Assembly (NCBI GenBank): GCA_963849735.1
Contig: CAWKJE010000003.1
Span: forward strand, 67,595 to 131,594
Source: an uncultured delta proteobacterium
GTDB lineage: Bacteria; Myxococcota_A; Polyangia; Fen-1088
DNA length: 64,000 nt
Direction: 5' to 3'
Shown here: positions 1-27,139 of the stretch, in pieces
Layout: the number at the start of each line of letters is the position of its first letter
How positions within the stretch are numbered: position 1 is the stretch's first letter
Notes under the pieces: model-generated
Database searches by the model: none
What the model saw: only the letters and a program-made list of their open reading frames with translations
What the model was told of the DNA's origin: nothing
Position numbers and translations under genes: made by a program

Positions 1-633
1 CGATGGGGTCGTTATGGCGAACCTGACCTTCTGCTCGTGCTCCAAGACGAGCACGATGTTGCTGCGCGCGCGATCCTGATCGAGGCAAAGCTGTATTCCC
101 CCAAGAGTGGGTCGGCAGGGGAGGACGACTCCAGCGTAGCCAACCCTGAAGTACCGGATCCGGACCAACTCGTCCGCTACTGGCAGGGACTTAGCACTCG
201 CTACGCTGGCGTCGAGCGCACCATCATCTACCTGACCTCTCACGGGGTGCCGCCTGCCGCCGAGTTGGTCGAGTCACTACGGCGGGAACCGTCGATGAGG
301 CTCGCGTGGCTCTCATGGCGAGACATCTGGAGGATCGCAGACCAGGCGGCGAAGAACAGCCTGGCCGCTCAAGATCTCGCAACCCTGCTGCGCCACAAGG
401 GTCTCTACTCCTTTTCCGGATTCTCGGATTTGAATGCTTTGATGCCAGTCCGAGCCAGTGCCCGCTACTGGCTCGGTCGTCATTGGTTCGCACAACTAGG
501 ACTGTCGATGTCACTGCCGTCCGGGGTGTTCCGTGGTAATACGTGGTTCAGGAGTTCGGTGCCCGATGTCGGCTCCGGACGTTTTCTAACCGGGGCGGCC
601 ACGGCATCCGACAAGGGGTTGAGGGGAAGATGA
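1..633 (+). CDS. PD-(D/E)xK-type nuclease family protein, C-terminal part (5' end outside window)
   Basis: Frame 1 is open from base 1. Motif 'GEPDLLLVLQDEHD...AILIEAKLY' fits the PD...(D/E)xK nuclease signature. Stop TGA 631-633 overlaps the ATG of the next gene (ATGA). Confidence 0.4.
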   Translation, partial: RWGRYGEPDLLLVLQDEHDVAARAILIEAKLYSPKSGSAGEDDSSVANPEVPDPDQLVRYWQGLSTRYAGVERTIIYLTSHGVPPAAELVESLRREPSMRLAWLSWRDIWRIADQAAKNSLAAQDLATLLRHKGLYSFSGFSDLNALMPVRASARYWLGRHWFAQLGLSMSLPSGVFRGNTWFRSSVPDVGSGRFLTGAATASDKGLRGR

Positions 634-1193
634 CCCAAGAAACTGTAGGCCAGTCCGCCAAACACGTTGTCAGGTTCCTTCGGGAGCTTCACTCGGACGT
701 CGCTGCAATGGTGCGCAGCCTCGATGGTCTGTTCGAAAAGCGTGGGTGGATTCCGCCACCCAGATACCAAAACAAGATCGCAGAGGAGCTTTCGAATGGT
801 CTCTCGGGAAGCGATGGCTGGGTACTTTCCTCGCTCTACCGCATGTATGTGCCCGCAACCGAGGTCGAGACCATTCGGCAGGCAGTGCTCCTCCAGGTGG
901 ACTTTGCGCCTGCGGCGTTCGACCACGCGGTTGTATTCGTAGGCGTGGCAAGGTTCGATGCGCCCGTAACCGCCGACATCATTTGGAATGGGTGGCGATC
1001 CTCAGAAGCCGTCGAAGCCTATTTGGCGGGTGTCCAAGATGCCACCGGATCGCTGCCACGCGAGACATGGCGCGAAGACGTCGCTCCACGAGCCGCCGAG
1101 ATGATCGGCTTCGTGTTGCCGTTGGATGGGCTCACGGACGAGAGACTGCTGGGTTCCTCGGTGGTGGATCCGGCGCTTCGCGCGCTCGAGTAG
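630..1193 (+). CDS. hypothetical protein (187 aa), translationally coupled to upstream nuclease gene
   Basis: ATG at 630 preceded by GGGGAAG RBS. ATGA overlap with the upstream stop. No recognisable motif. Confidence 0.5.
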   Translation: MTQETVGQSAKHVVRFLRELHSDVAAMVRSLDGLFEKRGWIPPPRYQNKIAEELSNGLSGSDGWVLSSLYRMYVPATEVETIRQAVLLQVDFAPAAFDHAVVFVGVARFDAPVTADIIWNGWRSSEAVEAYLAGVQDATGSLPRETWREDVAPRAAEMIGFVLPLDGLTDERLLGSSVVDPALRALE

Positions 1194-2183
1194 AAGTCCG
1201 CTGGAGCCATTCGGTCCCCATGCCGATTCCGGTTCTCCTGTTTGATTGCCTCGGCAAGTCACTGTACTGGAGATAGATGTACGGGCATCCTTGATGCGGA
1301 TCTCTTCGCGACGCATGACGACCTCGGAATCGAGGCGATGGCGCTCCGCCAAGGAGATGACGTAGAGCGCGCCCGTATTGGCATGCTTGGGCCAGGACGG
1401 AGGCAAGGGGACGGAGAAGTGGGATGCGGGCATGGTGGTATTGGCAGATTGGATCTGCTCGAAGGGCAGCCGGGTAGCCGGGGGGGGTGTCGCTTAGCCG
1501 GTCGGCCACAACGGTGCTCGAAAGTCCCGCCGGAAGGGAGCGGGGAAGCGGAGATGCAACTGATGCAAAGCCGTGATTTGATGGCAAAATCTCGGTGCCA
1601 TGCTGGCTGGGTCAGAGCGGGGGATGACATGGAGAAATTCGGTGCCCGGCTCACCAGATTTGTCTTGGTCGAGGAGGACGGCTTCAGTGCCGGTGGCCCG
1701 GAAATTTTTTGTCGGTGGCTGAAAATCACGGCCGCCCTGCTAATCAAGTGACAAAGCTCGCTTTGCTCGGCGCTTTTGGCGCCCCTGGATTCCCAGTGCT
1801 TGCCCGTGATGAAGGCTCCCTATGGGCTGCAAGGCACCCCTGCCCGGCATTTTTTGGCCACGACCGACACGGGGATTTTTGGGCCACCCGTCAACGTGGA
1901 CGGTGAGGTACGAACCCCATCGCAGGGTAGCGCGGCAGCGTTCGCGTCCGACCATCGAGCCAGAGGGCCGCTTCGGCGGATCGGGATTCTCGTGCAGGTG
2001 GGCGAGCACTGGTCGAAGAGCAGGTCGCCGGCAGACGGATGATCCGCTCTGGGCCGTTCGGTCCCGAGGCGTCCTCGCAGGTCCCGGCGTCGAGGGTCAG
2101 CTCGTCGTTGACGCGTACTTGAAGGCGGCTGGCAGTGCAGGATGGAGAAGGTGTCTGCATCTCGAGGCCACCAGCATTTGCCG

Positions 2184-4316
2184 TCACGCCCAGCGTGAAG
2201 GCCGAAGATCAAGTGCAAGTCTTCTGGCTTCCTCTTGGTCCAGAATCCGGGCGTCGACGCGTCCTCGCTGGTCGCGGGCGAGGCGAGCGCCCGGTCTCCC
2301 AAGCAAGATCGAGTGCCATCGCTGGCGCGCCACGAGCTGGTGCAGCATCCTCTCGTCGTAAGTTCCTCGCACAAGGGTGAAGTACACGTTGACTGGCTCT
2401 TTCAAGATACGCCCGAGCCTGTCGGAGCGGCCCTCGCGCTGCTCCATCCGAGCCGGATTCCACTCGATGTCAAAGTGTACCAGGTGAGCGCTGAAGCTGT
2501 GGAGGTCGATGCCCTCTGAACCGACGTTGCTGGCCACGAGCGCCCACGGTGCAAGTGGACTACGGAACGCCTCGCCAGCAGCATCTCGGTCGCGGCGATC
2601 GTCGTGACCGGTGTAGGTTCGCACGACCCCGAAGTTGCCTATCGCCGCAATGGTTGCCTGGACGCCACGCCTCTCCTCTCGCCGGAGACGCGCCCACCAG
2701 CCCCCATCTCGGTCGGCGCTGAGCACTGCCGCGAGCCCTGCCAGGCGACGCTCCAGGTCAACCAGCACGAGGGCTTGAAACTTCCGATGACCGAACAAGT
2801 CACGCGCGAGGCCGGCGTCGGGCCTGTCAGCCATGCTCTGTAGAGCCTCGACAATGGCGCCGGCGTCGGAGCTGGCTGCAAGGTGTTCATCGTTTTCGAT
2901 CAACCGCTCCACGGCTCGACGGACGCGAATGACACCGCTCGGTGCAGCCCTGGCCATAACGCGCCAGGCGCGTCGACCACGGACCACCTGCCATGCCTCG
3001 TCGATTGCCGCCGACAGCGACTCCTGAAGCTCGCGCGCGGCCCTTCCCACGAAGCTGGTGAAGATGAGCATCTTGCGGGGAAACCCGTCTTCAGCGGCTC
3101 GGACGAGATCTATCTCGGCTTGGGCTCGCGCCCATCTCTCAAGCGCAGCGAGGCGGGCAGACTGGGGCGGGCCGCTGTTTCGAGTCCCAGCGCTCCCGGC
3201 TTGCGCTGGCGTTGACAGGGCCTGCCTGAGCTTGTTCGGCACGAAGGTGCGTGGCCCATCCGCGAGAGCAAGCCGCCGTCGGAGGTACCAGGTCTCAAAT
3301 TTCTCGGTCGGCCCGATCAGGGAAGGGAGTAGCTCCTTCAGCTCTTGCTCCCGCATTTGATCGGGGGCTTTGATGCACGACGCAACTCCGTCCTCGGCGA
3401 TGAGGTGATAGCGCCTTCCGGCAGTCCGGACATTGCTGCGGACGAGGGCTTGACCAAGCGTTCGCTCCGCTCCGCGCTTGAGGGCTCGATAAGGTTCATC
3501 TCCTCCGCGGAAGAACTCAGCCAACGCCGCCACGAAATCTCGCACTGGTGGGCGGGAAAGCACGCGATGCGCCCCATGGCTCCCGTCGATAATCGCTCCG
3601 AAGATCTGGTGGAGCTCGCGAGGTTCGAGCTGGAACGGTGTCGCGGTCAGCAGCAACGCTGCTCGCACCCGTCTCGACCAGTTGGCGATGGTCTCCATCG
3701 CCTCGCGCGCCTCGCGATGGTGTGCTTCGTCCACGATGAGCACATCCCATGGCTGGGACCTCAACGCGGCAAGCCGGCTGCGGCCTGAACCCACCTTCTT
3801 CCGGAGCACGTTCCAGTTGCAGATGTACGTGCCAGCGGGCACCTCGACTCGAGCCCGCCGAATGGTTCCGGACGGAAGGTCGTCGAGATCGCCGCGCCGC
3901 CGGATCTCGTAGGGCTCCGTTAGGGTGTCGGCGACGAAGGCGCGCCGAGCGCGGCGAGCAGCCCAACGTTGCAGGTGTGCGGAGAACCCTTCTGGATCCC
4001 GGACCTCGCGAGACCATTTGGAGACGAGGCCCGGTGGGCAAAGAACGAGGACGCGTGCGGCCTGCTTCCGGATGTTCTGGCGGCGCCCGCCCTCCGATCG
4101 CTCCTTGCTCCGCTCCACGAGGATGAGGGCGCTCGCCGCTAACGCCTCCCACGTCTTGCCGAGCCCGACGCCGTCTGCCAACACCGCCCCGTACTGTTCG
4201 ACCCAGGTCCGACCGGTGTCAAACCGTCGCCCACGCGCATCGGCGAGCCTGCGTCTCACCCAGATCGCAACCTCTTCCTGATGGGCGAGCCCTGTTGAGA
4301 TCGTGTTGCGGCTCAT
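2184..4316 (-). CDS. SNF2-family (SF2) helicase, compact 710 aa
   Basis: Motif I 'DGVGLGKT', motif II 'LIVDEAHH', motif III 'LLLTATP'. C-terminal helicase motifs 'GSEGIDLH' and 'HFDIEWNPARMEQREGRSDRLGR' (SNF2 motif VI). ATG at 4316 overlaps upstream stop (ATGA). Confidence 0.85.
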   Translation of the reverse strand: MSRNTISTGLAHQEEVAIWVRRRLADARGRRFDTGRTWVEQYGAVLADGVGLGKTWEALAASALILVERSKERSEGGRRQNIRKQAARVLVLCPPGLVSKWSREVRDPEGFSAHLQRWAARRARRAFVADTLTEPYEIRRRGDLDDLPSGTIRRARVEVPAGTYICNWNVLRKKVGSGRSRLAALRSQPWDVLIVDEAHHREAREAMETIANWSRRVRAALLLTATPFQLEPRELHQIFGAIIDGSHGAHRVLSRPPVRDFVAALAEFFRGGDEPYRALKRGAERTLGQALVRSNVRTAGRRYHLIAEDGVASCIKAPDQMREQELKELLPSLIGPTEKFETWYLRRRLALADGPRTFVPNKLRQALSTPAQAGSAGTRNSGPPQSARLAALERWARAQAEIDLVRAAEDGFPRKMLIFTSFVGRAARELQESLSAAIDEAWQVVRGRRAWRVMARAAPSGVIRVRRAVERLIENDEHLAASSDAGAIVEALQSMADRPDAGLARDLFGHRKFQALVLVDLERRLAGLAAVLSADRDGGWWARLRREERRGVQATIAAIGNFGVVRTYTGHDDRRDRDAAGEAFRSPLAPWALVASNVGSEGIDLHSFSAHLVHFDIEWNPARMEQREGRSDRLGRILKEPVNVYFTLVRGTYDERMLHQLVARQRWHSILLGRPGARLARDQRGRVDARILDQEEARRLALDLRPSRWA

Positions 4317-5383
4317 TTCGCCCTCGAAGCGCGGTTGGGTGAGTTGAGATACTCGACGAGCGCGCGCCGTACGTGTGTCGGGATGCCCAGTTTCGCAACC
4401 TGCGCGCAGAGGAGGTCGAGTCGCGCCTTCGCGTAGGCCGAGCCAGCGGCGGCCGCAGCGATTCTCTTGCGAAGAACCGCCACCGCGACCGCCAGCCGAT
4501 CCAGCTGGCCTTCGTGCTTGGCCTCGGTCAGCGCCTGCACGTCGCCATCGTCCTCATCGAATGTGTCGTCGCTCTGCTCATCGCCAGGCTTGACTTTCTC
4601 GCCGGCTCTCCGAGCGGGCCAGAGTCCCAGCTCCTCCCAGACAAGATCGAGGAGCGCGCCATCCGGGGTTCCGTGATCGCGGGCGGCCAGAGGGACAACT
4701 ACCGGGAATGGGGAGAACGCCTTGCCAACGCGCTCCCACAAGATTCCGCCCCAGGAGTCGCTGCTTCTCGACGACGCGGACTTTCCGAACAGCGAATGCA
4801 TCTGCCTTCGGTCTTCGATCCATCCGACCCTTCGAGTGACGCGGACTTGCACGAGTTTGCTCTTCGGTGCCGCTGCAATCTCCACGGTTCCCTGACGAAG
4901 CATGGGGACTTCTATTCGCAAGCTCGGTCCCGCGCTGCCTTCGGAAATCTCACCCGCCAGGACCACGCCGGCCGGCTGAACGGGGGCGTGCGCAGCGGTG
5001 ACCGCAAAGGTCTTGTCCGCGGGCTCGAAAAGGTCGGCTAGGTCACTGCGCAGAGCTGCAACCTCGGCCGTCCCGAGCTTCGACGCCACCAGTAGCTCGA
5101 CGTTGCCACCGCCAGCGACGGCCCGTGTCAGCGCCGGGTGCGTGCAGTTCGCGCTCCCGAAGAACAACCTACTGCCCGCAGCTGAGTCTTCGATCAGGTA
5201 TGCCTTCGCGTGGACGCGAGTCGGTCGTCTCTCGAGATTCTGCCTCTCCCTCGTCTGCCGACTGCTCGCTCTTGCCTCGGGGGGAGGGCTTCTCCACGCG
5301 GATGTGAACCCGGTTGCCATCGCCCAAGTTTGGGCCGCGTCCGTTCCGTCCTTCCGTGAAGACGGCGATGCGTGAGGCGCCAA
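4313..5383 (-). CDS. PLD-family nuclease, C-terminal HKD half; N-terminus is in another frame, probably one frameshifted gene with 5169-6128
   Basis: HKD motif 'HAKAYLIEDSAAGSRLFFGSANCT' at codons 58-81, about nt 5212-5141, inside the region overlapped by the upstream ORF tail. Stop overlaps helicase start. No credible in-frame start downstream of the overlap. Confidence 0.55.
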   Translation of the reverse strand: MAPHASPSSRKDGTDAAQTWAMATGFTSAWRSPPPEARASSRQTRERQNLERRPTRVHAKAYLIEDSAAGSRLFFGSANCTHPALTRAVAGGGNVELLVASKLGTAEVAALRSDLADLFEPADKTFAVTAAHAPVQPAGVVLAGEISEGSAGPSLRIEVPMLRQGTVEIAAAPKSKLVQVRVTRRVGWIEDRRQMHSLFGKSASSRSSDSWGGILWERVGKAFSPFPVVVPLAARDHGTPDGALLDLVWEELGLWPARRAGEKVKPGDEQSDDTFDEDDGDVQALTEAKHEGQLDRLAVAVAVLRKRIAAAAAGSAYAKARLDLLCAQVAKLGIPTHVRRALVEYLNSPNRASRAK

Positions 5384-6128
5384 GCGCGCGCTTCAGCTTG
5401 CGCAGCACACTTGGATCGACGCCCTCTGGTGATGCGGCTGCGGAGTGCCAAGGCGAGAGGACTGTAAGCTCTGGTGCATTCGCAACACGGCCTTGGCCGC
5501 TCCGCGTCGCCGCCATTTGGTCGACGAGAGCGACGTTGAGCGAATCGAGAAGCCCGCTTGGGTCTTGGCGAATTCCCGCCAGTGCCACGGCGACAAACTC
5601 GCGTGCGGACTCCGGCAGCAGAAGATGCTTGTGCCTCACCAGCCGGTCCAGGAAGTGCGCCGCGCCGCCGAGCAGCCGCCGCCCAGTCTCCGTGTCGTTG
5701 TCGGCAAACAGCATCATCTCAAGGTTGCCCCCGAGTCCACCGGACGTCAGGTTCGCGGAGCCAACGCCCACGAGATAGCGGCTGCCTGCGGTCAGCAGCA
5801 CGAGCTTCGGGTGAAAGACGCCGCCTCGAGGGCATCTGACGGGCGAGACCTGATAGCGGCCAAACCGTCGTGGGCCGATCTGCCGGAGATGAGCCTGCAG
5901 CGCGCCTGCGTCGGCGGCGACGAGCGTGCGGAACTGGCGTCCGCGGCGCGTAAGCTCTGGGAAGAGGACGGCCTCGAACCGCTCGACATCGAAGTCGTAC
6001 GTACAAAGGATCGCTCGCCTAGGAGCGGCAGATCCGTATCGGGAAATAAACGCTCGGAGAACGTCGGCTGTCCGCTGCCATCTGAGGCTGCTTGCCGTGC
6101 GCGCCACCTCAGAGCCCTCGCAGGTCAT
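5169..6128 (-). CDS. PLD-family nuclease, N-terminal HKD half (likely 5' part of a frameshifted two-HKD gene)
   Basis: ATG at 6128 ('MTCEGSEV...'); the ORF's first ~112 codons upstream look like noncoding low complexity. HKD-like motif 'HPKLVLLTAGSRYLVGVGSANLTSGG' around nt 5813. The C-terminal ~45 codons (5304-5169) are low-complexity and overlap the second HKD frame. Confidence 0.55.
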   Translation of the reverse strand: MTCEGSEVARTASSLRWQRTADVLRAFISRYGSAAPRRAILCTYDFDVERFEAVLFPELTRRGRQFRTLVAADAGALQAHLRQIGPRRFGRYQVSPVRCPRGGVFHPKLVLLTAGSRYLVGVGSANLTSGGLGGNLEMMLFADNDTETGRRLLGGAAHFLDRLVRHKHLLLPESAREFVAVALAGIRQDPSGLLDSLNVALVDQMAATRSGQGRVANAPELTVLSPWHSAAASPEGVDPSVLRKLKRALGASRIAVFTEGRNGRGPNLGDGNRVHIRVEKPSPRGKSEQSADEGEAESRETTDSRPREGIPDRRLSCGQ

Positions 6129-7395
6129 TCGCGACCCTGCTGAACGCAGCCATCCGGTACGCATGCGGGCGAACGAGCGTCGGGATCGACCACCCTTCGC
6201 CCGCATCGCGGGCGATCTCGAACTGCCCCGAGCCGACTTCTCGCACCCACGCGTCATCGCCCTTGGCAGACCGATGCCGTGCCAGCAGCATCGCCAGCCC
6301 ATCGGCGACCCGTGAGCTCGGGCCTTTGCTCTTACTGATGAAGATCCGAGCGAGCTCGAATGCACTGGGATCTGGTAGCTGTGTCCCGCTGTCGCGCAAT
6401 CGATCGTTGAGCCGAAGCGCAAGGCGGAGCGATGCGATTCCCAGGGCGAGTGAGGCTGTCTCATCCGTCAACGCAATTGCGCCAAGAGGAGGGACCGGGT
6501 GTTCTCGGGACAAGAGGTGTGCGAGGTCGCGTTCAACATGACGCTGGCGTCCGGCATCGATGGAGCGCACCCAAACAGTGAATAGTGTGTTCAGGCCCAC
6601 GGACAGCCGCTCCCACACCGCAGCCGCTCTCAGCGTCTGGAGGGGTTCGGGCAGCGTTGGCGGCCGGCGACCCTCGTAGCGCGGCAAGACCGTCTCGGGG
6701 CTGAGTCCTTCACGCGAGAAGACGGGACGAATCTCGCGGGCAAATGCCGCTCTCCGCGTTCGTACATCTGAGGATTCGAGGTCGAGGCGGCCACGGATTG
6801 AGAGCCCGAGGACGTCCCGAATCTGGCGGCGCTCGTTCGATGAGATCGCCGAGAGGCAAGCTCGACCAGGAAGTTGGCTGCTAGGGCCCTTGCGATGACG
6901 GACGTCCTTGCGGAATAACTTCGCTGCGTCGACGCCTGCGTCCGTGAGCGAAAAACGCGGGGCCCCCTCGATAAGTCCCAGAGCGACCATCGAAGCCCGG
7001 TAGGCACGCCAGGCAGGCACCTTGTACACGTGACGAGGATCTGCCGGTATCCGGTCACGAGGAAGCGTGCGGATGTTGCGGGAGCCAACGAACTGGCAGG
7101 ACTCGGCGTGGCTCGCGTCTTCGTCGGACAGGAGCGCCTCGGCGAACACGAGCGCGACCTCGTAGCGATGGATTCGGTGTTCATCGTAATCATGGCCGCT
7201 CTCGTCACGGGCCCACGCTAGGAACGTGAAGTAGCGCGCGCGTGTGGTCAGGACCGAAAGCCCAGGGAGCAAACGGTCGGCGAGCCTGTCTGCGACCGCC
7301 TGAAGCGCGAGGGCGTCGGTCGCCCTGGAGCGAAGTGGATCGGGCTCAACCCATGCTGGCAAGACGCCGGAGAGCACCCCCCCATCATAAACCAC
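6109..7395 (-). CDS. hypothetical protein (428 aa), first gene of helicase/PLD operon
   Basis: Long ORF with GTG start at 7395. Stop at 6109 overlaps the start of the PLD gene (6128). No recognisable motif. Confidence 0.55.
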   Translation of the reverse strand: MVYDGGVLSGVLPAWVEPDPLRSRATDALALQAVADRLADRLLPGLSVLTTRARYFTFLAWARDESGHDYDEHRIHRYEVALVFAEALLSDEDASHAESCQFVGSRNIRTLPRDRIPADPRHVYKVPAWRAYRASMVALGLIEGAPRFSLTDAGVDAAKLFRKDVRHRKGPSSQLPGRACLSAISSNERRQIRDVLGLSIRGRLDLESSDVRTRRAAFAREIRPVFSREGLSPETVLPRYEGRRPPTLPEPLQTLRAAAVWERLSVGLNTLFTVWVRSIDAGRQRHVERDLAHLLSREHPVPPLGAIALTDETASLALGIASLRLALRLNDRLRDSGTQLPDPSAFELARIFISKSKGPSSRVADGLAMLLARHRSAKGDDAWVREVGSGQFEIARDAGEGWSIPTLVRPHAYRMAAFSRVANDLRGL

Positions 7396-7416
7396 AAGAG
7401 ACGACCGCCAACCGAG

Positions 7417-8263
7417 ATGTTTCGCACTCGGTTTGGCTTGTGCGTTGGGCGTGCGCCCTGGAGGCTGGCAGCGTTGCGCGGTCTTCGGGGAGCCGCACTA
7501 CCTGGCCACACCCTGGTGGTCTACGATCCGGACACTCTCCTGGTGGTTGACTTGGTGCCGTGCGAAGACGGCCACGCCCAGGAACGGACCCTCGTTCCCG
7601 CGGTCATGGGTACCGTGAAGAAAGGTCAGCTCTGGATAGCGGACAGGAATTTCTCGACCAGGGCCATCATGGCCGACATCGACCGGGCTGGCGGCGCCTT
7701 TGTCATTCGGGAACATGCCGCTTCACCGAACCCGACCGAGCTCGGCTCGGCGCATAGGAAAGGGCAGACTGACTCCGGGGACTTCTACGAGCAGGCAGTT
7801 GAGATTGGTCTCGAGGACGGCACGACCATGGCTTTGCGCCGCATCGAGGTGCGACTGAAAACCCCGACGGAAGACGGCGAGACGGTCATCTGGATCCTGA
7901 CCAACCTGCCCAAGAGGCTCGGGGCTGAAGTCGTAGCGGAGGCGTATCGGCATCGATGGAAAATCGAGAACAGGTTCCAGTGGCTGGAATCGGTCCTGGA
8001 GAGCGAGATACGCACCCTGGGATATCCCCGGGGCTGCGCTGTTCGCGTTCTCGGTGGCGGTACTTGCCTACAATGTCTTGAGCATCATCCAAAGCGCGAT
8101 CGAAACTGCTCACGACATCCAACCCGGGAAAAGTGAACAGATCTCGCTCTATTACGTCGTCAACGAGATCAAGACCACATACGAAGGAATGGTCATTGCC
8201 GTGCCGGAGGAAGAATGGGATGGGTGCCGGTCAATCTCCCCCAAGCAGGTCGCCCAAGGGTGA
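7417..8263 (+). mobile_element. IS4-family DDE transposase remnant (5'-truncated and frameshifted pseudogene)
   Basis: 'WIADRNF' (second D region) and 'YRHRWKIENRFQWLE' (YxxRxxxE signature). The N-terminal ~150 aa including the first D are missing. Reading frame shifts near 8030-8054 (CCCCGGGG run); the expected continuation 'AALFAFSVAVLAYNVLSII...' lies in the 8054-8263 frame. Confidence 0.65.
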
Positions 8264-8369
8264 TGCCCACAGCGCTGTTGAACTTTAAGGGGTAGCGGCG
8301 GCTCCCTGACCGGCCCGAAGATAGGGCTTGTTCAGGACCAACAGTCCCCGAGGGGACAAGGAGCCGCCG

Positions 8370-9669
8370 ATGAAAAGGAAAGCAGAGAACACGACGAACG
8401 GGAAGGCCGAAGGCATGAATTTGAGGGGCCTGGCCACGATGGTGCGGCAAGTAATGCTGCCGATGGTCGCAGGTATCGTAACCACGAAGAAGGCATTGCA
8501 CGAGTGGGTGGCCGAGATGGGGATGGCCGCACTGGTTGGCGTGATGGAGGCCGACGCTGAGCGGGTGGTCGGATGTCGCAAGGGCGGGCACCAGCAGGGA
8601 CGCCGGCTGAGCCACTGGGGCTACACGGACACGCCCTTCCCGTACGACGGACGGCAGGTGGTGCCGCCGCGCCTGCGCGTTCGCACTGTCGACAAGAATC
8701 AGGAGGTGGCGCTGCCTACGGTGGCGAACTTCCAGTCGCTGGACCCGATGAGCATGCGCGTGGTGGACCAGATTCTACTTGGTGTATCAACGCGGGGCTA
8801 CGAGGCAAGCCTGGGCGCAGGACCTGCGGGACTGCGGACCAAGGGAGGGAAGAAGAGTCGCGTGAGCGAGGTGTTCGTCCAGGAGACCAGGCGGCGGATG
8901 AAGGACCGTCTGGCGGAAAGGCTGTATGGCCTGGACTTGGTGGCGATGCTGCTCGACGGTGTGCATGTTGCCGAACACGCAATCGTCGTTGGCCTGGGCA
9001 TAGCTCGAGACGGGGGCAAACACATTCTTGGGCTACGTCAGGGCTCAACGGAGAACGCCATGCTGTGCACGGAGCTGCTCCAGGACTTCGTGGCGCGTGG
9101 GCTGAAGAATATCGAGGGCTTGCTCTACGTGGTGGACGGCGGTAAGGGCCTGCGCACCGCCATACGCGACGTGGCCGGCAACAGCGCAGTGGTACAACGC
9201 TGCCAACAGCACAAGCGCCGGGACGTGGTCGGTCACCTGCCCCAGTCGCGCCAGAAGACCGTCGACCGGATGCTGGTCGATGCGTACAAGAGCGAGAGCC
9301 TGAAGACAGCGCGCAAGCGGCTCGGCCAGATCGTCTCGTGGCTGGAGCGGAACGGTGAAGAAGACGCAGCGGCGAGCCTACGCGAGGGACTGGAAGAAAC
9401 TCTGACCGTCTGGAAGCTCGATCTGCCCGAGCCGCTCCGGCGGTTCTTCGGGACGACCAACGCCATCGAGAACGTCCTCGGAGTCGTGCGCCGGGTGAGC
9501 CGCAACGTGAAGAACTGGCGTCACGGCGCGATGGCGAAGCGGTGGACCGGCATCGGCCTCATAGCTGCTGAGAAGAACTTCCACCGAATCAAGGGTCATC
9601 GCCACATGCCCGCACTTGTCGAGGCCCTCAGGCGACTCCGTCGCCGACAACGTCCGCCGCAAGGAATCC
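8370..9669 (+). CDS. IS256-family (Mutator-type) transposase lacking its own stop codon; ORF runs into the CRISPR array
   Basis: 'QRCQQHKRRDVVGHL' (IS256 QRCxVHKxRN signature). 'LYVVDGGKGLRTAI' and 'TTNAIENVLGVVRRVSRNVKNWR'. ATG at 8370 with AAGGAGCC RBS. No stop until 9866, which is inside translated repeats. Confidence 0.75.
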
Positions 9670-12600
9670 GTTTCAATCCACGCCCGGCCCCGAGGGGCCA
9701 GGCGACACTCGTACCGCTTTCACTGCATCTTCGTGGTCGAGTTTCAATCCACGCCCGGCCCCGAGGGGCCAGGCGACCCGTTGGGCCCGCGCAGCACGTC
9801 CGCCCGGCACAGGTTTCAATCCACGCCCGGCCCCGAGGGGCCAGGCGACGTCCTTCGGCCCCGTGATCATGAGAGCGCAGCTCGGTTTCAATCCACGCCC
9901 GGCCCCGAGGGGCCAGGCGACATCATTCGCGAGCTGCGGGTGGAGGGGTGGCTCGGTTTCAATCCACGCCCGGCCCCGAGGGGCCAGGCGACTCCGAGCA
10001 CGCCGAGCTGCTGCGGGCCGAGCCGGTTTCAATCCACGCCCGGCCCCGAGGGGCCAGGCGACATGTGCCAGTCGCCATGTGGCCGGAGGGCACGGTTTCA
10101 ATCCACGCCCGGCCCCGAGGGGCCAGGCGACACAGCTCCGAGGTGCCAGCCACGCCCACGGAGGTGTTTCAATCCACGCCCGGCCCCGAGGGGCCAGGCG
10201 ACGGTCACGGAAAGTACGCTGTAGCGTCTTGTCCTGTTTCAATCCACGCCCGGCCCCGAGGGGCCAGGCGACCCTGGGCTTGATACTCGCTACTGGGTTT
10301 CACGTGGTTTCAATCCACGCCCGGCCCCGAGGGGCCAGGCGACGCGAAGCTGCCCGACATCTTCTACGTGCGTGCGGTGTTTCAATCCACGCCCGGCCCC
10401 GAGGGGCCAGGCGACACTGCATCGCGCTCTGCTACCCGCCTGCGATTCTGTTTCAATCCACGCCCGGCCCCGAGGGGCCAGGCGACTCACGCAGAATGCC
10501 CAGCAGGTCCAAACCCAGAAGTTTCAATCCACGCCCGGCCCCGAGGGGCCAGGCGACCTGAGCGACCTGGAGCTAGGCAAGCGCGCGTCGGTGTTTCAAT
10601 CCACGCCCGGCCCCGAGGGGCCAGGCGACATGCAAGGCCAATGGCCAGATCTACGGGCTCGACGTGTTTCAATCCACGCCCGGCCCCGAGGGGCCAGGCG
10701 ACATGTTCCCGCCATCGTCCAGCGGGGCAAGGAGGCGTTTCAATCCACGCCCGGCCCCGAGGGGCCAGGCGACCCCGGTGGAACGCCTTGAGCGCCACGA
10801 AGATCCGAGTTTCAATCCACGCCCGGCCCCGAGGGGCCAGGCGACCATCTTCGCCACCGCACCCGTTGCCGGCGAGCCGTTTCAATCCACGCCCGGCCCC
10901 GAGGGGCCAGGCGACGCTGGCTGTGACCGTGAGTCGGCAACCGGACCTTGTTTCAATCCACGCCCGGCCCCGAGGGGCCAGGCGACGATGACGAGCGCCC
11001 AGACGGTGGTAATCCCCTCGTTTCAATCCACGCCCGGCCCCGAGGGGCCAGGCGACCCAGGTTGGATTGGGGCTTGTTGCCCGACAGGGTGTTTCAATCC
11101 ACGCCCGGCCCCGAGGGGCCAGGCGACTTGTCCGTCTTGCTACAAAGCCAAGATGTCGCAGGTTTCAATCCACGCCCGGCCCCGAGGGGCCAGGCGACAC
11201 CCCAGCGCCGTCGTGACGCCAGCCCCGGTTATGTTTCAATCCACGCCCGGCCCCGAGGGGCCAGGCGACAAGGCGCCTCCAATAACCCGGGGCTGGTAGC
11301 CAAGTTTCAATCCACGCCCGGCCCCGAGGGGCCAGGCGACAAGCAGGTGGCTTGGGCGGCCAAGCTGCGCATTGTTTCAATCCACGCCCGGCCCCGAGGG
11401 GCCAGGCGACGAGAGCGCCGTCAGGTCGTACGTCCCGATTAGCCGGTTTCAATCCACGCCCGGCCCCGAGGGGCCAGGCGACTATCGAACGCAGGGACGA
11501 TGGCGCGCAGGATGTGTTTCAATCCACGCCCGGCCCCGAGGGGCCAGGCGACATGGCCGTCGTGGTGCCGGTGCCCGTGCCCGACTGGTTTCAATCCACG
11601 CCCGGCCCCGAGGGGCCAGGCGACTCACCGCGAGCCCGCCAGGCGCAACCGAAGCCGTGGGTTTCAATCCACGCCCGGCCCCGAGGGGCCAGGCGACGTG
11701 CTGAAATGATCGACACCGACGCCGTGTGGATAGTTTCAATCCACGCCCGGCCCCGAGGGGCCAGGCGACACGTCCCGCCGTAAGTCGTCCCCTGCATGAT
11801 CTCGTTTCAATCCACGCCCGGCCCCGAGGGGCCAGGCGACAGCGTCAGTCGGTCTACCAGCTCTACAAGGCTCGGTTTCAATCCACGCCCGGCCCCGAGG
11901 GGCCAGGCGACCCTGCTGCGCGGGTAGGTCCACGGCCCAGGACACGACGTTTCAATCCACGCCCGGCCCCGAGGGGCCAGGCGACACCATGCGGATCTGC
12001 TGCATCACGTCCAGGGAGGGGTTTCAATCCACGCCCGGCCCCGAGGGGCCAGGCGACGCCATGACAGGCCCAACCACCCGCCCAATGTGCTTTGGTTTCA
12101 ATCCACGCCCGGCCCCGAGGGGCCAGGCGACCGGGCAGCCACAGCGGGAGTCCGACGGCAAGTAGGGTTTCAATCCACGCCCGGCCCCGAGGGGCCAGGC
12201 GACAGTGACACCAACGAGATCACGGCCGATGATCTGAAGTTTCAATCCACGCCCGGCCCCGAGGGGCCAGGCGACTCATCGTGCCGTTCGAGATCAGCGA
12301 CACCTTCCGGGTTTCAATCCACGCCCGGCCCCGAGGGGCCAGGCGACGTCCCCGAACACAGCGTCCGTGTCCGTGGCGAACTGTTTCAATCCACGCCCGG
12401 CCCCGAGGGGCCAGGCGACCACTGGAGGTCTGCGCCGACACGCTCAGGGTGATGTTTCAATCCACGCCCGGCCCCGAGGGGCCAGGCGACGTGCTGCGCA
12501 GCGGGCATCCGTCGGGCTCTATGAAGTTTCAATCCACGCCCGGCCCCGAGGGGCCAGGCGACTCTCCGTCGAGCAGCACTTGTAAGTCAGGCTTCGGGTT

Positions 12601-15600
12601 TCAATCCACGCCCGGCCCCGAGGGGCCAGGCGACGGCGCCGGCGCAGACCGAGGCGCCTGCTCCCAAGTTTCAATCCACGCCCGGCCCCGAGGGGCCAGG
12701 CGACGTCGTGGAACCCGAGCCACTTGTCGACCAGGTGATCGTTTCAATCCACGCCCGGCCCCGAGGGGCCAGGCGACCTCACCGATCCGTCTCTTGGCCA
12801 TCACAATATGTTTCAATCCACGCCCGGCCCCGAGGGGCCAGGCGACAGGCGCGCGAGGGACAGGCGCTGGCGGTTATCGAGTTTCAATCCACGCCCGGCC
12901 CCGAGGGGCCAGGCGACACGGGCCACATGACATATCGCTCTGGCAACAATACGTTTCAATCCACGCCCGGCCCCGAGGGGCCAGGCGACACCGAAGGCTT
13001 TGCGCTGCACCGCCAGATGCCGGGTTTCAATCCACGCCCGGCCCCGAGGGGCCAGGCGACCTGCGCCTGGGTCCATTCGTCCGGTTCGGCACGTAGTTTC
13101 AATCCACGCCCGGCCCCGAGGGGCCAGGCGACCTGCGCCTGGGTCCATTCGTCCGGTTCGGCACGTAGTTTCAATCCACGCCCGGCCCCGAGGGGCCAGG
13201 CGACAGAGACGAGCATCGCAGGCATTGCAGCTCTTAGTTTCAATCCACGCCCGGCCCCGAGGGGCCAGGCGACACGCCGCGTGGGCTGAAGTTCTTGCGG
13301 GAGCTGGTTTCAATCCACGCCCGGCCCCGAGGGGCCAGGCGACGGGCGAAGGCCACACCATTACGTACGCGAAAGGAGTTTCAATCCACGCCCGGCCCCG
13401 AGGGGCCAGGCGACGTATCTGCCAGGAGAGTGCACCGAGGATTGCTTCTAGTTTCAATCCACGCCCGGCCCCGAGGGGCCAGGCGACTGGCTCCGATGCC
13501 AATACGGGAGTCAACTATTTGTTTCAATCCACGCCCGGCCCCGAGGGGCCAGGCGACTCAAGTCGCGCAACCCGGCGCGCGCCGAGCTTGAGTTTCAATC
13601 CACGCCCGGCCCCGAGGGGCCAGGCGACGCGGACAATCGGCCATGACCCGCCGCAAGCGCCAGTTTCAATCCACGCCCGGCCCCGAGGGGCCAGGCGACG
13701 GTAATGGGCCGCCACGTCGTTCCCGTCTGCTGGGTTTCAATCCACGCCCGGCCCCGAGGGGCCAGGCGACCCGGTCACCAGTTGACTGCCAATGCCCCAG
13801 CGGCGGTTTCAATCCACGCCCGGCCCCGAGGGGCCAGGCGACCCGCGGCCCAGCCTCCTCTCCGCAGCGGAGCCAGGTGTTTCAATCCACGCCCGGCCCC
13901 GAGGGGCCAGGCGACCTTTCAATGGCGGCGGATTCGGTAGCGCCGAGAGGTTTCAATCCACGCCCGGCCCCGAGGGGCCAGGCGACACCATTAGGTCGTC
14001 GCCCTTGAAGCCGCAGAAGCGTTTCAATCCACGCCCGGCCCCGAGGGGCCAGGCGACCTTGTGCCGCCCGTCTCCCCTACGTCGGGCAAGTCGTTTCAAT
14101 CCACGCCCGGCCCCGAGGGGCCAGGCGACTTTGCGCGCCCGGTTCACGATCATCATCCATTGCTGTTTCAATCCACGCCCGGCCCCGAGGGGCCAGGCGA
14201 CCGGGCGCATCTTGGTGGGGCGCCCAGTACACGTAGTTTCAATCCACGCCCGGCCCCGAGGGGCCAGGCGACTGTACTTGTACGTCACGGCGGGCGCGTG
14301 CCGAGTGTTTCAATCCACGCCCGGCCCCGAGGGGCCAGGCGACGTGCGCCCGTCGGCAAACTTGGGCTGGCTCACGCCGTTTCAATCCACGCCCGGCCCC
14401 GAGGGGCCAGGCGACCCTGGCCGGCGATCTGCTCCGCCGTGCTGCCATCGGAGTTTCAATCCACGCCCGGCCCCGAGGGGCCAGGCGACGTGGGCAAGCT
14501 GGGCGGTGTGTCAGTACACGGACGGGTTTCAATCCACGCCCGGCCCCGAGGGGCCAGGCGACCGCCGGGGACGGTGCCCTACTGGCCGCCGCAAGCGTTT
14601 CAATCCACGCCCGGCCCCGAGGGGCCAGGCGACTTGAGCGGCACGAGGCCCCCCGACCAGAGCGCCGCGTTTCAATCCACGCCCGGCCCCGAGGGGCCAG
14701 GCGACCGGCGAAGAATGCGTCGCGGCGGTTGAGGCACAAGTTTCAATCCACGCCCGGCCCCGAGGGGCCAGGCGACCGTGAGCGAGCTTGGGCCGGCGCA
14801 GCCCATCGAGTTTCAATCCACGCCCGGCCCCGAGGGGCCAGGCGACGCGCGAACGCCCTCGTCATGGCAGACGATGGCGTGTTTCAATCCACGCCCGGCC
14901 CCGAGGGGCCAGGCGACCGTAGCCTGTCGCCGGGTTGCGCAGCTTCGCGCGGTTTCAATCCACGCCCGGCCCCGAGGGGCCAGGCGACGGCGAAGGGAGT
15001 TCTAGGCATCTGGATTTCTTTGTTTCAATCCACGCCCGGCCCCGAGGGGCCAGGCGACGTCTCCCGAGGCATTGAGGCCGCTAGGCTGATTGTCGTTTCA
15101 ATCCACGCCCGGCCCCGAGGGGCCAGGCGACTGCGGCGGGCGTCATGTGGGTATTCACTGCGATGTTTCAATCCACGCCCGGCCCCGAGGGGCCAGGCGA
15201 CAAGAAAGGGCTTGTCAATAGGTCATTTTGCCCCAGTTTCAATCCACGCCCGGCCCCGAGGGGCCAGGCGACACCCTGACCGTGGGGACCGCGCCGCAGA
15301 CCATCTCGTTTCAATCCACGCCCGGCCCCGAGGGGCCAGGCGACATCGACCAGTAGCGAGGCGGCAGCAGGCGCTTACGTTTCAATCCACGCCCGGCCCC
15401 GAGGGGCCAGGCGACGAGCACGGCGAAGCCTTGCGGCTATGGCACAACAAGTTTCAATCCACGCCCGGCCCCGAGGGGCCAGGCGACTCTCAAGCGTTTC
15501 ACGGACTGGACTGGCAACGAGTTTCAATCCACGCCCGGCCCCGAGGGGCCAGGCGACAGACGGCCGAGCATGCTGATTGGCCAGTCAACGAGTTTCAATC

Positions 15601-18600
15601 CACGCCCGGCCCCGAGGGGCCAGGCGACACCGCGCGCTGGGGGCGAAGCTGTGACCCGCCGTGTTTCAATCCACGCCCGGCCCCGAGGGGCCAGGCGACA
15701 AGACTGTGCCCTGCTTCCCCTTGGCGATCTTATTGTTTCAATCCACGCCCGGCCCCGAGGGGCCAGGCGACTGGGTCCTTGCCGAACACGATAGGGCCGA
15801 GGGTGTTTCAATCCACGCCCGGCCCCGAGGGGCCAGGCGACTCGGCGACAGGTTGAACCAAGCGGTCAACGACCTGTTTCAATCCACGCCCGGCCCCGAG
15901 GGGCCAGGCGACCAGCGCAGCCCATGTTCATCCTCGAACGGCAGATGTTTCAATCCACGCCCGGCCCCGAGGGGCCAGGCGACGAATGGACCGCGACGGG
16001 GCTCGCCTTGGTGACGGGTTTCAATCCACGCCCGGCCCCGAGGGGCCAGGCGACAAGATCGCGGCGGCCGTCTTGCCGTCGATCACCAGGTTTCAATCCA
16101 CGCCCGGCCCCGAGGGGCCAGGCGACACCCGCGGGTGCCTGCTGCCCGGACACACCCGAGGCGTTTCAATCCACGCCCGGCCCCGAGGGGCCAGGCGACT
16201 CAGCTGCGTCGACTTGGAGCCCGTGAAGCTGGCGTTTCAATCCACGCCCGGCCCCGAGGGGCCAGGCGACCAAGCAGGTGGCTTGGGCAGCCAAGCTGCG
16301 CATTGGTTTCAATCCACGCCCGGCCCCGAGGGGCCAGGCGACAGAGACGGCCTGGACTGGTACGTAGAGGTAGGCGGGTTTCAATCCACGCCCGGCCCCG
16401 AGGGGCCAGGCGACCTACAGGGGAGGTTAGGCGTGCTCTGTCGCAGCTGTTTCAATCCACGCCCGGCCCCGAGGGGCCAGGCGACCAGACGACCAGATCA
16501 TTTTTCTTGACAAAGAACGTTTCAATCCACGCCCGGCCCCGAGGGGCCAGGCGACGATCACTTGACTGGCCTACCGGACTTGGTGGAGGAGTTTCAATCC
16601 ACGCCCGGCCCCGAGGGGCCAGGCGACCGGCAGCATGCGCACGTTTGAGTACAAGATGCTGTTTCAATCCACGCCCGGCCCCGAGGGGCCAGGCGACATG
16701 GAATCCGCTTGAGCAGGAAACCAAGCTTGAGTTTCAATCCACGCCCGGCCCCGAGGGGCCAGGCGACAAAAACAGCTTGAGGTTGATCGCGCACTGGTCG
16801 GTTTCAATCCACGCCCGGCCCCGAGGGGCCAGGCGACCCCGCACATCGCCAAGCTAGCCCGCGTGCCCGAGATGTTTCAATCCACGCCCGGCCCCGAGGG
16901 GCCAGGCGACCCAAGTGCCGAGGTTTGAGGCTGCATGATGACCATGTTTCAATCCACGCCCGGCCCCGAGGGGCCAGGCGACCAGGTATGCGGCACAGCT
17001 ACGCTCTATGTAGACAGGTTTCAATCCACGCCCGGCCCCGAGGGGCCAGGCGACCTACCGCTGGATGTGTGCTACTCGTGGCAGTGACGTTTCAATCCAC
17101 GCCCGGCCCCGAGGGGCCAGGCGACAGCTCTGCACGCGATTGTCCGCCGCGTACCAGGAGTTTCAATCCACGCCCGGCCCCGAGGGGCCAGGCGACCTCA
17201 CGCGCGCTAGCGCTACCCTGTAGGCATGTGGTTTCAATCCACGCCCGGCCCCGAGGGGCCAGGCGACCTTTGTGCCGGAGGAGGTGTAACATGAGTACCG
17301 CTGTTTCAATCCACGCCCGGCCCCGAGGGGCCAGGCGACCTGCAGGTTCGTGTCAGGCGCCGCCAGGTGCTTGGCGTTTCAATCCACGCCCGGCCCCGAG
17401 GGGCCAGGCGACAAGTGCGACGAGCAGGTTCAGCGCATCGCCGAGATGTTTCAATCCACGCCCGGCCCCGAGGGGCCAGGCGACCGGCTGACGGACGAGC
17501 AGCTGACCGCCATAGCGGAGTTTCAATCCACGCCCGGCCCCGAGGGGCCAGGCGACCGCAACGATCGCGCTCTCCTGGCCGCGCAGCATGCTGTTTCAAT
17601 CCACGCCCGGCCCCGAGGGGCCAGGCGACCCGCTACCCGGTCGAGGTCTTGTGCGGGGCATGGTTTCAATCCACGCCCGGCCCCGAGGGGCCAGGCGACC
17701 CGCGGGGCAGGGAGGCAAGCCTTGATCAAGCACCTGTTTCAATCCACGCCCGGCCCCGAGGGGCCAGGCGACCATGGTTGAGCGATTCCAGGGCCACGCT
17801 GTCCTGTTTCAATCCACGCCCGGCCCCGAGGGGCCAGGCGACTCAGCTCGCGTCGCCAGTCGCCACGATGACTCTTGTTTCAATCCACGCCCGGCCCCGA
17901 GGGGCCAGGCGACCTCCAGCCGTTCCAGGCGCGTGCGCACGGCCGAGTTTCAATCCACGCCCGGCCCCGAGGGGCCAGGCGACACGAAGAAGGGTCGAGG
18001 GCATGGAAAAGACGATGTTTCAATCCACGCCCGGCCCCGAGGGGCCAGGCGACGCGTCGGCCAGGGGTACGAGTTGCCGCCAAAGTAGTTTCAATCCACG
18101 CCCGGCCCCGAGGGGCCAGGCGACCGCGTCCGGGTGGACGGCGGTCACCAAGGTGATGTTTCAATCCACGCCCGGCCCCGAGGGGCCAGGCGACCGGGCT
18201 GAGCACATGGGACTGCAGGTCGGCCAGGTTTCAATCCACGCCCGGCCCCGAGGGGCCAGGCGACGTTTCTCACCACGAGCGACGGTCAACGCATCGAGTT
18301 TCAATCCACGCCCGGCCCCGAGGGGCCAGGCGACTGGCGCGCAGAACAGCGCCAGATGAGCCAGAACGTTTCAATCCACGCCCGGCCCCGAGGGGCCAGG
18401 CGACAAGGCCCCCTCCGAAGAGCGGCACAACTCATCAAGTTTCAATCCACGCCCGGCCCCGAGGGGCCAGGCGACGGCCTGGTGGATTCAATGCTCGCCC
18501 GCCGACATGTTTCAATCCACGCCCGGCCCCGAGGGGCCAGGCGACAAGAGTCGGCCGAGCACGAGGGCAAGGACGCCGAGTTTCAATCCACGCCCGGCCC

Positions 18601-18901
18601 CGAGGGGCCAGGCGACCTGCAAGGGCGGCAGGATGTCCTCGGCGACGTCCTGTTTCAATCCACGCCCGGCCCCGAGGGGCCAGGCGACCAAGACGCGCAT
18701 CTCGGTAACGTTGGCCACGGTGTTTCAATCCACGCCCGGCCCCGAGGGGCCAGGCGACCTGAGGATCTCCTCCCAAAGCAGCGATGAGCTGAGTTTCAAT
18801 CCACGCCCGGCCCCGAGGGGCCAGGCGACAAGCCGCGCCCGAGCATTGCAACGGCGCCGAGAAGGTTTCAATCCACGCCCGGCCCCGAGGGGCCAGGCGA
18901 C
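9670..18901 (-). CRISPR. Type I-C CRISPR array, 130 repeats and 129 spacers; repeat (plus strand) GTTTCAATCCACGCCCGGCCCCGAGGGGCCAGGCGAC
   Basis: 130 copies of a 37-bp repeat with 71-72 bp period and spacers of 32-37 bp. Minus-strand repeat GTCGCCTGGCCCCTCGGGGCCGGGCGTGGATTGAAAC ends in the type I-C 'ATTGAAAC' signature. Same strand as the adjacent cas genes. Confidence 0.98.
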
Positions 18902-19084
18902 GCACCCGCTAAGAATATGGCAGATTTCGCCCACCTACTGGGGCTTCGGCGCGAAGGGTGCAAGTCTCGCGCAGTTGCGCCGCTGTGGCTGGCGGCGCCA
19001 TGGTCGTACTCTTCGAATTTCAGAGAGCAAGTAGCAAGGCGCGAACGGTCACGGACTTTCATGTCCAATCCACCTTCGCGCTGC
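18902..19084 (-). promoter_or_regulatory. CRISPR leader (between cas2 stop and first repeat)
   Basis: 183-bp non-coding, lower-GC segment lying between cas2 and the repeat at 18865-18901, on the transcribed (minus) strand upstream of the array. Confidence 0.6.
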
Positions 19085-20410: not shown

Positions 20411-20412
20411 GA

Positions 20413-21036: not shown

Positions 21037-21074
21037 GAAAGGGGTTCTTCTTGAAACCTAGGCGAGGGTCCAGC

Positions 21075-21944: not shown

Positions 21945-21961
21945 GGTGGATCTCCTTGATA

Positions 21962-23941: not shown

Positions 23942-23942
23942 G

Positions 23943-27129: not shown

Positions 27130-27139
27130 CGCGCTCACC

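What the first reader, a model, noticed from the sequence alone, without database searches (positions are those of the whole stretch)
4313..6128. Two-HKD PLD nuclease gene split by a frameshift (or two overlapping single-HKD genes)
The upstream ORF (5169-6128) carries the first HKD motif and the downstream ORF (4313-5383) the second, but they overlap by ~214 nt in different frames. The second HKD motif (codons at ~5186-5212) lies inside the overlap, so that frame must be the real one there, while the tail of the first ORF (5304-5169) is low-complexity. This implies a +/-1 frame change somewhere around 5220-5390. It could be a sequencing indel, true pseudogenisation (a broken defense nuclease), or programmed frameshifting.
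Basis: seen in the sequence. Interest (0 to 1): 0.55.

Follow-up and report, generated by a model that had tools for sequence, protein, structure and literature searches.

The report
Sequencing-error frameshift in PLD nuclease gene
One extra base, sitting in a GATC site of the kind that nanopore sequencing often misreads, makes an intact anti-phage nuclease gene look split in two, so this is most likely an assembly error and not biology.

Summary
On the minus strand, ORF 6128-5169 carries the first HxK...GSxN motif and ORF 5383-4313 the second. They overlap by 215 nt in different frames.

The cause is one extra A at 5239/5238, where the window reads GCAGAATCTCG and relatives read GCAGATCTCG. 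Removing it gives a 604-aa ORF 100% identical to P0001. That protein is encoded intact on three other assemblies of the same strain (99.9-100% DNA identity). All 69 full-length homologues are single ORFs.

Across all comparisons with these near-identical assemblies, 10 of 15 differing sites lie on GATC motifs (GATC<->GAATC, GATT or AATC). In the 16-kb island holding this gene it is 9 of 10, against about 2.5% expected. Real strain variation in the same window shows 259 differences, 5% near GATC and no indels. This is the known signature of nanopore miscalls at methylated GATC.

The gene is ZacB of a distant Azaca-like (ZacA/DUF6361, ZacB/PLD, ZacC/SNF2) defence operon, next to IS elements and a ~130-repeat type I-C CRISPR array.

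Verdict: assembly artefact about 0.87, real inactivating insertion about 0.10, programmed frameshift or functional split about 0.01. Low interest.

The parts
4313..6128 (-). ZacB-like two-HKD PLD-superfamily nuclease gene. It is 604 aa once one base is removed. The likely true start is GTG 6107.
   Evidence: Deleting base 5239 gives an ORF 100% identical to P0001. All 30 aligned homologues match PADLOC ZacB, best E 7e-22. The AF2 model (pLDDT 85) matches single-chain two-lobed PLD folds such as Tdp1, PPK1 and PssA.
5236..5240 (-). Frameshift site. The window reads GAATC where three other assemblies of the same strain read GATC. The extra A is at 5239/5238.
   Evidence: It falls at residue 296/297, in a predicted disordered linker (residues 284-298, pLDDT below 50).
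5751..5813 (-). First catalytic motif, H106-x-K108 ... G123-S-A-N126. It lacks the Asp of the classical HxK(x)4D.
   Evidence: H106, K108, G123, S124 and N126 are invariant in the 30-sequence alignment A1. Coordinates were checked.
5147..5212 (-). Second catalytic motif, H306-A-K308(x)4D ... G324-S-A-N327.
   Evidence: H306, A307, K308 and G324-N327 are invariant in A1. Coordinates were checked.
5169..5237 (-). Out-of-frame tail of the upstream ORF (ESRETTDSRPREGIPDRRLSCGQ*), produced by the extra base.
   Evidence: It has no counterpart in P0001-P0006, which read DLERRPTRVHAK here.
6109..7395 (-). ZacA-like gene (428 aa, DUF6361-related). Its stop lies next to or overlaps the ZacB start.
   Evidence: PADLOC ZacA 8.8e-11. 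Pfam DUF6361 5.9e-05, below the cutoff. The same neighbour is present in L006 and L007.
2184..4316 (-). ZacC-like SNF2-family helicase gene (710 aa). Its ATG overlaps the ZacB stop (ATGA).
   Evidence: Pfam SNF2-rel_dom 4.3e-12 and Helicase_C 2.8e-09. PADLOC ZacC 1e-15 and DrmD 1.4e-23. GLGKT and DEAH are visible in the translation. The junction is shown.

Best explanation
The gene is one intact 604-aa ZacB-type PLD nuclease. The apparent split comes from a single spurious base, an extra A that turns GATC into GAATC at 5240-5236 on the minus strand. This base was most likely introduced by long-read (nanopore-type) consensus error at a methylated GATC site.

Shown here:
- The position of the extra base.
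- Its absence from three other assemblies of the same strain.
- The single-ORF state of all homologues.
- The clustering of inter-assembly differences on GATC.

Inferred:
- The sequencing platform of the window's source.
- That GATC is methylated in this organism.

Functionally, the gene is the nuclease of an Azaca-like ZacA-ZacB-ZacC operon. In the studied Azaca system all three proteins are needed for DNA cleavage (bioRxiv 10.1101/2025.07.10.664194).
For: 1. Removing base 5239 gives an ORF 100% identical to P0001.

2. L001 (ENA ERZ25039486 contig_135113), L002 (Logan ERR11523671) and L005 (Logan ERR11523660) are 99.92-99.96% identical to the window. All three read GATC at this site.

3. Of 10 distinct differing sites between the window and these contigs, 9 lie on a GATC. 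They are GATC<->GAATC at 5239, 10651 and 13934/5, and GATC->GATT or AATC at 16081, 9329, 4678, 4099, 3890 and 2600. GATC plus or minus 1 covers only 2.5% of the bases. The binomial P is at most 1e-10.

4. The same error class occurs in the opposite direction. L001 has GAATC where the window has GATC, at 10651.

5. Control for real variation: window 41-61 kb against contigs of other strains or samples shows 259 differences, 13 near GATC and 0 indels. Fisher P is 5e-09 for GATC and 6e-06 for indels.

6. 69 of 104 homologues are full length and single ORF. The residues after the shift (DLERRPTRVHAK) are conserved.

7. G-to-A and C-to-T errors at GATC are documented for R10.4.1 nanopore assemblies (PMC11610603; bioRxiv 10.64898/2026.01.14.699587).
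Against: - No reads could be inspected.
- The platform of the window's source contig (260,413 bp, NCBI/ENA) is not known. A link of the ERR/ERZ accessions to the nanopore-only Microflora Danica project could not be verified.
- The published methylation-linked nanopore errors I read are substitutions. The GATC->GAATC insertion form is supported only by the recurrences seen here.
- The contigs from SRR28023769 that are 100% identical to the window (9.4 kb) do not cover position 5239.
- L001 and L002 may derive from the same reads, so they may not be independent.
- A scan of all 80 GAATC/GATTC sites found no second gene in the window broken this way.
Confidence: 0.87

Rival explanations
1. The extra A is a real, very recent 1-nt insertion in this strain or sub-population. 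It inactivates the ZacB nuclease, and with it the Azaca-like system, in a defence island that already carries IS insertions.
For: - The sequence as given contains the insertion.
- The public annotation of the source contig calls two CDS, P0103 and P0102.
- The operon sits beside two transposase genes, a setting where defence genes often decay.
- No read data exclude it.
Against: - The window is otherwise identical to the intact-gene assemblies, apart from sites on short palindromic motifs.
- A real mutation has only about a 2.5% chance of landing in a GATC.
- The same GATC<->GAATC difference recurs at two other sites, in both directions.
- Real strain variation in this window shows no indels and no GATC bias.
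Confidence: 0.1
2. The frameshift is real and is bypassed or tolerated. Either a programmed +1 ribosomal frameshift operates at GCA GAA UCU, or the two single-HKD halves are expressed separately and reassemble like the homodimeric single-HKD nucleases Nuc and BfiI.
For: - The break falls in a predicted disordered linker between the two PLD lobes (residues 284-298, pLDDT below 50).
- Frame 2 has an in-frame ATG (the codon for the M of 'WAMATG') about 100 nt upstream of HKD2.
Against: - There is no shifty stop, slippery run or other obvious frameshift signal at the site (read by eye, not scanned).
- No homologue carries a frameshift or a split at this position.
- Same-strain assemblies encode the uninterrupted gene.
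- An AA dinucleotide cannot support transcriptional slippage, by established knowledge.
Confidence: 0.01
3. These are two genuinely separate, overlapping single-HKD genes.
For: Only the mechanical ORF list and the split public annotation.
Against: - All 69 full-length homologues, at 30-86% identity, are single ORFs of 550-613 aa with both motifs.
- The three-gene cassette with a roughly 570-600 aa PLD is conserved in L006, L007 and L008.
- The tail of ORF1 after 5237 has no homologue.
Confidence: 0.005

Closest known systems
Azaca anti-phage system (ZacA DUF6361 / ZacB PLD nuclease / ZacC helicase)
   Same: The gene order and content are the same: a DUF6361-like protein, a roughly 600-aa two-motif PLD protein, and an SNF2-type helicase with coupled starts and stops. 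All 30 homologues hit the PADLOC ZacB model colinearly (residues 94-357 against profile 98-342 of 586). ZacA and ZacC models are also hit.
   Different: The relationship is distant. E-values are 1e-10 to 1e-22. Pfam DUF6361 scores 22.7 bits, below its cutoff of 25. The helicase scores better against DrmD models than against ZacC. No function was tested here.
Nanopore consensus errors at methylated motifs (Dam GATC; G-to-A and C-to-T miscalls)
   Same: The differences between same-strain assemblies sit on GATC. They include the published GATC->AATC and GATT substitution type (PMC11610603; bioRxiv 10.64898/2026.01.14.699587).
   Different: The event that breaks this gene is a 1-nt insertion (GATC->GAATC), not a substitution. 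The platform and the methylation status could not be verified.
Single-chain two-lobed PLD-superfamily phosphodiesterases (Tdp1, PPK1 C-terminal domains, PssA)
   Same: The predicted fold aligns over about 430-460 columns with Tdp1 (E 1e-09). There are two HxK...N half-sites in one chain. The first motif lacks the Asp, as the motifs of Tdp1 do.
   Different: Sequence identity is only 10-15% and TM is 0.35-0.5. There is an extra beta-rich and helical C-terminal region (about residues 370-604) with no match. The biological role is different.
DISARM DrmC / PDC-M27B PLD proteins
   Same: Weak PADLOC hits to the HKD core (DrmC 6e-08 at best, PDC-M27B 6e-13), and association with an SNF2 helicase.
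   Different: There are no DrmA, DrmB or methylase partners in the operon. DrmC is a short single-HKD protein.

Membership tests
Azaca (ZacABC) defence system | Three-gene operon: DUF6361 protein, PLD nuclease, helicase | tested here: met
   The order 7395-6109, 6128-4313, 4316-2184 is all on the minus strand, with overlapping or adjacent stops and starts. PADLOC gives ZacA 8.8e-11, ZacB 3.3e-18 (full length) and ZacC 1e-15. The cassette is conserved in L006, L007 and L008.
Azaca (ZacABC) defence system | Scores at curated family level for each component | tested here: inconclusive
   Pfam DUF6361 scores 22.7 bits against a cutoff of 25. The helicase scores higher on DrmD than on ZacC. The ZacB match covers only the HKD core.
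Azaca (ZacABC) defence system | Phage defence, and DNA cleavage that requires all three proteins and the helicase Walker A motif | not testable with these tools
   Known only from bioRxiv 10.1101/2025.07.10.664194 for the Azaca system studied there (BmAzaca).
PLD superfamily, two-HKD single-chain enzymes | Two HxK(x)4D(x)6GSxN motifs in one polypeptide forming one active site | tested here: met
   H106/K108/GSxN 123-126 and H306/K308/D313/GSAN 324-327 are present, and the His, Lys and GSxN residues are invariant in 30 homologues (motif 1 has no Asp and D313 varies among distant homologues). A bilobed PLD fold is predicted.
Programmed ribosomal frameshift gene | The frameshift is conserved in homologues and sits at a recognisable shifty site | tested here: not met
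   No homologue is frameshifted. Same-strain assemblies lack the extra base. No slippery or stop-codon context is evident by eye.
Methylation-motif-linked long-read consensus error | Differences between assemblies of one strain concentrate on a short palindromic motif and are absent from true strain variation | tested here: met
   9 of 10 sites are on GATC against 2.5% expected. The control has 13 of 259 near GATC and 0 indels.
Methylation-motif-linked long-read consensus error | Strand-biased miscalls in raw reads, and GATC methylation detected in the signal | not testable with these tools
   No reads or signal data are available.

The most novel reading that the evidence does not exclude
The extra A is real in this strain and the nuclease still works. 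This would happen either by an unconventional +1 frameshift at GCA GAA UCU, or as two separately translated single-HKD halves that reassemble across the disordered inter-lobe linker.
Probability: 0.01. Interest if true: 0.5.

Novelty: not a real feature. Interest (0 to 1): 0.08.

Why it matters
The main value is as a correction. The public record of this contig annotates an intact defence nuclease as two CDS (319 aa and 284 aa). Any pseudogene, 'decaying defence system' or programmed-frameshift claim built on that annotation would be wrong.

The GATC-linked difference pattern also gives a cheap, read-free test. Comparing same-strain assemblies and asking whether the differences fall on short palindromes can flag methylation-induced errors in long-read MAGs. 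It also suggests that this organism methylates GATC.

The underlying biology is ordinary: a distant Azaca-like ZacABC operon in a defence island beside a large type I-C CRISPR array.

Tried and rejected
- Exact-pattern scans for both variants (GACGAGGGAGAGGCAG[N0-1]ATCTCGAGAGACGACCGAC) in genome contigs and metagenome contigs found nothing.
- I deleted one base at each of the 80 GAATC/GATTC sites in the window to look for further broken genes. Only 5236-5240 gave a genuine merge. 27171 is the boundary between the WYL regulator and cas3, and 6436 is the ZacA/ZacB boundary. Both are spurious long stop-free frames in GC-rich DNA.
- A GC3-based coding-frame scan was too insensitive for this island. 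Its one candidate (54755-56631) is two separate glycosyltransferase genes, GT2 then GT1.
- I tried to tie ERR11523671, ERR11523660 and ERZ25039486 to a named nanopore project through paper text and supplements, without success. The Flye-style contig names and accession neighbourhood only suggest Microflora Danica.
- Exact-protein look-ups of Cas8c and of P0103 returned nothing.
- The SRR28023769 contigs (L004, L071) stop at 5789 and 4438, so they miss the site.
- The C6 homopolymer at 5284-5279 was considered as the indel site and rejected. The frame is conserved through it.
- A profile search of PDB sequences gave no significant hit.
Full report
**Observation**

The minus strand of window 2184-7395 carries three tightly packed ORFs.
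- A 428-aa ORF at 7395-6109.
- A PLD-type gene that is split into ORF 6128-5169 and ORF 5383-4313.
- A 710-aa SNF2-type helicase at 4316-2184, whose ATG overlaps the PLD stop (ATGA).

The upstream PLD piece holds H106-P-K108 (5813-5805) and GSAN (5762-5751). The downstream piece holds H-A-K (5212-5204), D (5188-5186) and GSAN (5158-5147). Pfam PLDc_2 hits both pieces.

**Locating the frame change**

I searched with a conceptual fusion of the two pieces. It returned 101 relatives.
- The best, P0001, is 604 aa and 99% identical over 100% of the query.
- P0001 reads ...SADEGEADLERRPTRVHAKAYLIED.
- The window reads ...SADEGEA in frame 1 and LERRPTRVHAK in frame 2.
- At the DNA level the window has GCAGAATCTCG where the P0001 contigs have GCAGATCTCG.
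- Deleting window base 5239, one of the two A's at 5239/5238, gives a 604-aa ORF identical to P0001 at every residue.

The indel is therefore a +1 nt insertion in a GATC. It is not in the nearby C6 run (5284-5279), which is read in frame.

**Homologues are single genes**

Of 104 related sequences, 69 align over essentially the whole length as single ORFs of about 550-613 aa.

In a 30-sequence alignment (29-86% identity to P0001) the following are invariant: H106, K108, G123, S124, N126, H306, A307, K308 and G324-N327. The RRPxRVHAK stretch just after the frameshift is conserved.

The three-gene cassette recurs in unrelated surroundings in L006, L007 and L008. It consists of a DUF6361-like protein of about 370-430 aa, a PLD of about 570-600 aa and an SNF2 helicase of about 670-710 aa. 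This refutes the reading of two genuine overlapping single-HKD genes.

**Artefact or real mutation?**

Three other assemblies carry this locus.

| Locus | Source | Identity to window | Overlap |
|---|---|---|---|
| L001 | ENA ERZ25039486 contig_135113 | 99.957% | 16,127 nt |
| L002 | Logan ERR11523671 | 99.94% | 6.8 kb |
| L005 | Logan ERR11523660 | 99.92% | 2.5 kb |

All three read GATC at 5239.

The striking result is where the few differences lie. Of 10 distinct differing sites, 9 are on a GATC.
- GATC<->GAATC at 5239, at 10651 (here L001 has the extra A and the window does not) and at 13934/5.
- GATC->GATT or AATC at 16081, 9329, 4678, 4099, 3890 and 2600.

GATC plus or minus 1 nt covers only 2.5% of the region. 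The binomial tail is at most 1e-10.

As a control I compared window 41-61 kb with contigs from other samples that carry 0.3-1% true divergence (L062, L063, L064, L066, L068, L069). There were 259 differing columns, only 13 within 4 nt of a GATC, and no indels. Fisher tests against the same-strain set give P = 5e-09 for GATC association and 6e-06 for indels. Real variation in this organism is therefore not GATC-linked and not indel-rich, whereas the differences among the near-identical assemblies are.

Contigs from a further run, SRR28023769 (L004, L071, L067; 9.4 kb), are 100% identical to the window. They confirm GATC at the three sites where L002 has AATC. They do not cover 5239.

G-to-A and C-to-T miscalls at GATC are a documented residual error of nanopore R10.4.1 assemblies (PMC11610603; bioRxiv 10.64898/2026.01.14.699587).

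The Flye-style contig names and the accession neighbourhood suggest the nanopore-only, Medaka-polished Microflora Danica data set (PMC12313526). I could not verify that link.

A real insertion would have to land by chance in the 2.5% of sequence that is GATC. It would also have to take the same GATC->GAATC form that recurs elsewhere between these assemblies. I therefore put the artefact at about 0.87 and a real inactivating insertion at about 0.10.

**Programmed frameshifting**

Restoring the frame needs a +1 shift at GCA GAA UCU CGA. I see no in-frame stop, slippery run or other obvious shift signal there; this was read by eye and not scanned. Only an AA dinucleotide is present, which is too short for transcriptional slippage. 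No homologue is frameshifted, and the same strain elsewhere encodes the uninterrupted gene. I give this, together with a functional two-piece enzyme, about 0.01.

**What the gene is**

- PADLOC models ZacA, ZacB and ZacC hit the three ORFs. ZacA scores 8.8e-11. ZacB scores 3.3e-18 for the repaired protein, and all 30 homologues match with a best E of 7e-22. ZacC scores 1e-15.
- These are the components of the Azaca defence system. In the Azaca system studied there (BmAzaca), DNA cleavage in vitro needs all three proteins, the nuclease active site and the ZacC Walker A motif (bioRxiv 10.1101/2025.07.10.664194).
- An AlphaFold2 model built on the alignment is confident (pLDDT 85, pTM 0.89). The frameshift falls in the only long disordered loop between the two lobes, residues 284-298.
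- Its best PDB matches are single-chain two-lobed PLD-superfamily enzymes: Tdp1 (E 1e-09), PPK1 and PssA.
- The match to Azaca is distant. Pfam DUF6361 is below its cutoff, and the helicase scores higher on DrmD. I therefore call it a distant Azaca-like member, not a proven one.
- The inferred mechanism, by analogy and not tested here, is that ZacC translocates on DNA and licenses ZacB's single composite HKD active site to cut foreign DNA. The role of ZacA is unknown.

**Context**

The operon lies in a defence island.
- A DDE transposase (7417-8136) and an IS256-family transposase (8328-9866) separate it from the CRISPR array.
- The array runs from 9670 to 18902, with a period of about 71 nt, a 37-nt repeat and about 130 repeats.
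- Type I-C cas genes lie beyond the array.

**Verdict**

The split is most probably not a real feature of the genome. Interest is low.

Noticed in passing
window 9670-18902: A very large CRISPR array: about 130 copies of the 37-nt repeat GTTTCAATCCACGCCCGGCCCCGAGGGGCCAGGCGAC with a period of about 71 nt. On the minus strand the repeat ends ...ATTGAAAC. The long ORFs listed there on the plus strand are spurious.
   Followed up: partly
window 19400-28249: A type I-C cas operon on the minus strand: Cas3 HD-helicase (24637-27207), Csd1/Cas8c (21962-24001) and Cas7 (21075-21965). It is preceded by a WYL-WCX regulator (27140-28249).
   Followed up: partly
window 7417-9866: Two transposase genes, a DDE_Tnp_1 (7417-8136) and an IS256-family transposase (8328-9866), lie between the distal end of the CRISPR array and the Azaca-like operon.
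   Followed up: partly
window 56791, 42817, 46212, 9374; L001 16788, 16895: The remaining differences between the near-identical assemblies also tend to fall on short palindromes: GGCC<->GGCT at 56791, 42817 and L001 16788, and TCGA<->TTGA/TCAA at 46212 and L001 16895. This hints at further methylated motifs. Site 9374 fits none of them.
   Followed up: no
L061 around 6160 (window 54976): The Logan ERR11523660 contig has an extra T in a T4 run. This truncates its GT1 glycosyltransferase call to 66 aa. The window and the contigs from other samples are intact at 369 aa. It is an example of an indel error in that run's assembly.
   Followed up: partly
L007 142-2924 and 10544-11788: Contig ERZ25039459:contig_26856, from a different organism, shows a UvrD-like helicase split as 584+343 aa and a umuC-like gene split as 136+290 aa. 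In each case the downstream frame clearly continues upstream of the called start. More frameshift artefacts in that assembly set are likely.
   Followed up: partly
window 4313-6128 (public annotation of the 260,413-bp source contig): The collection holds the split gene as two proteins, P0103 (319 aa) and P0102 (284 aa). P0102 starts at MFFGSANCT, after the HxK of the second motif. The public record therefore mis-annotates this gene.
   Followed up: yes
window 1-7500 and 41470-61116: The same strain occurs at 100% identity in SRR28023769. Relatives at 99.0-99.9% identity occur in JGI metagenomes 3300018023, 3300041809 and 3300039412, in ENA ERZ27250170, and in SRR7028486 and SRR13201612. The organism is widespread. 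The closest genome-catalogue relatives of its PLD protein are Acidobacteriota (Solibacteraceae) MAGs.
   Followed up: partly
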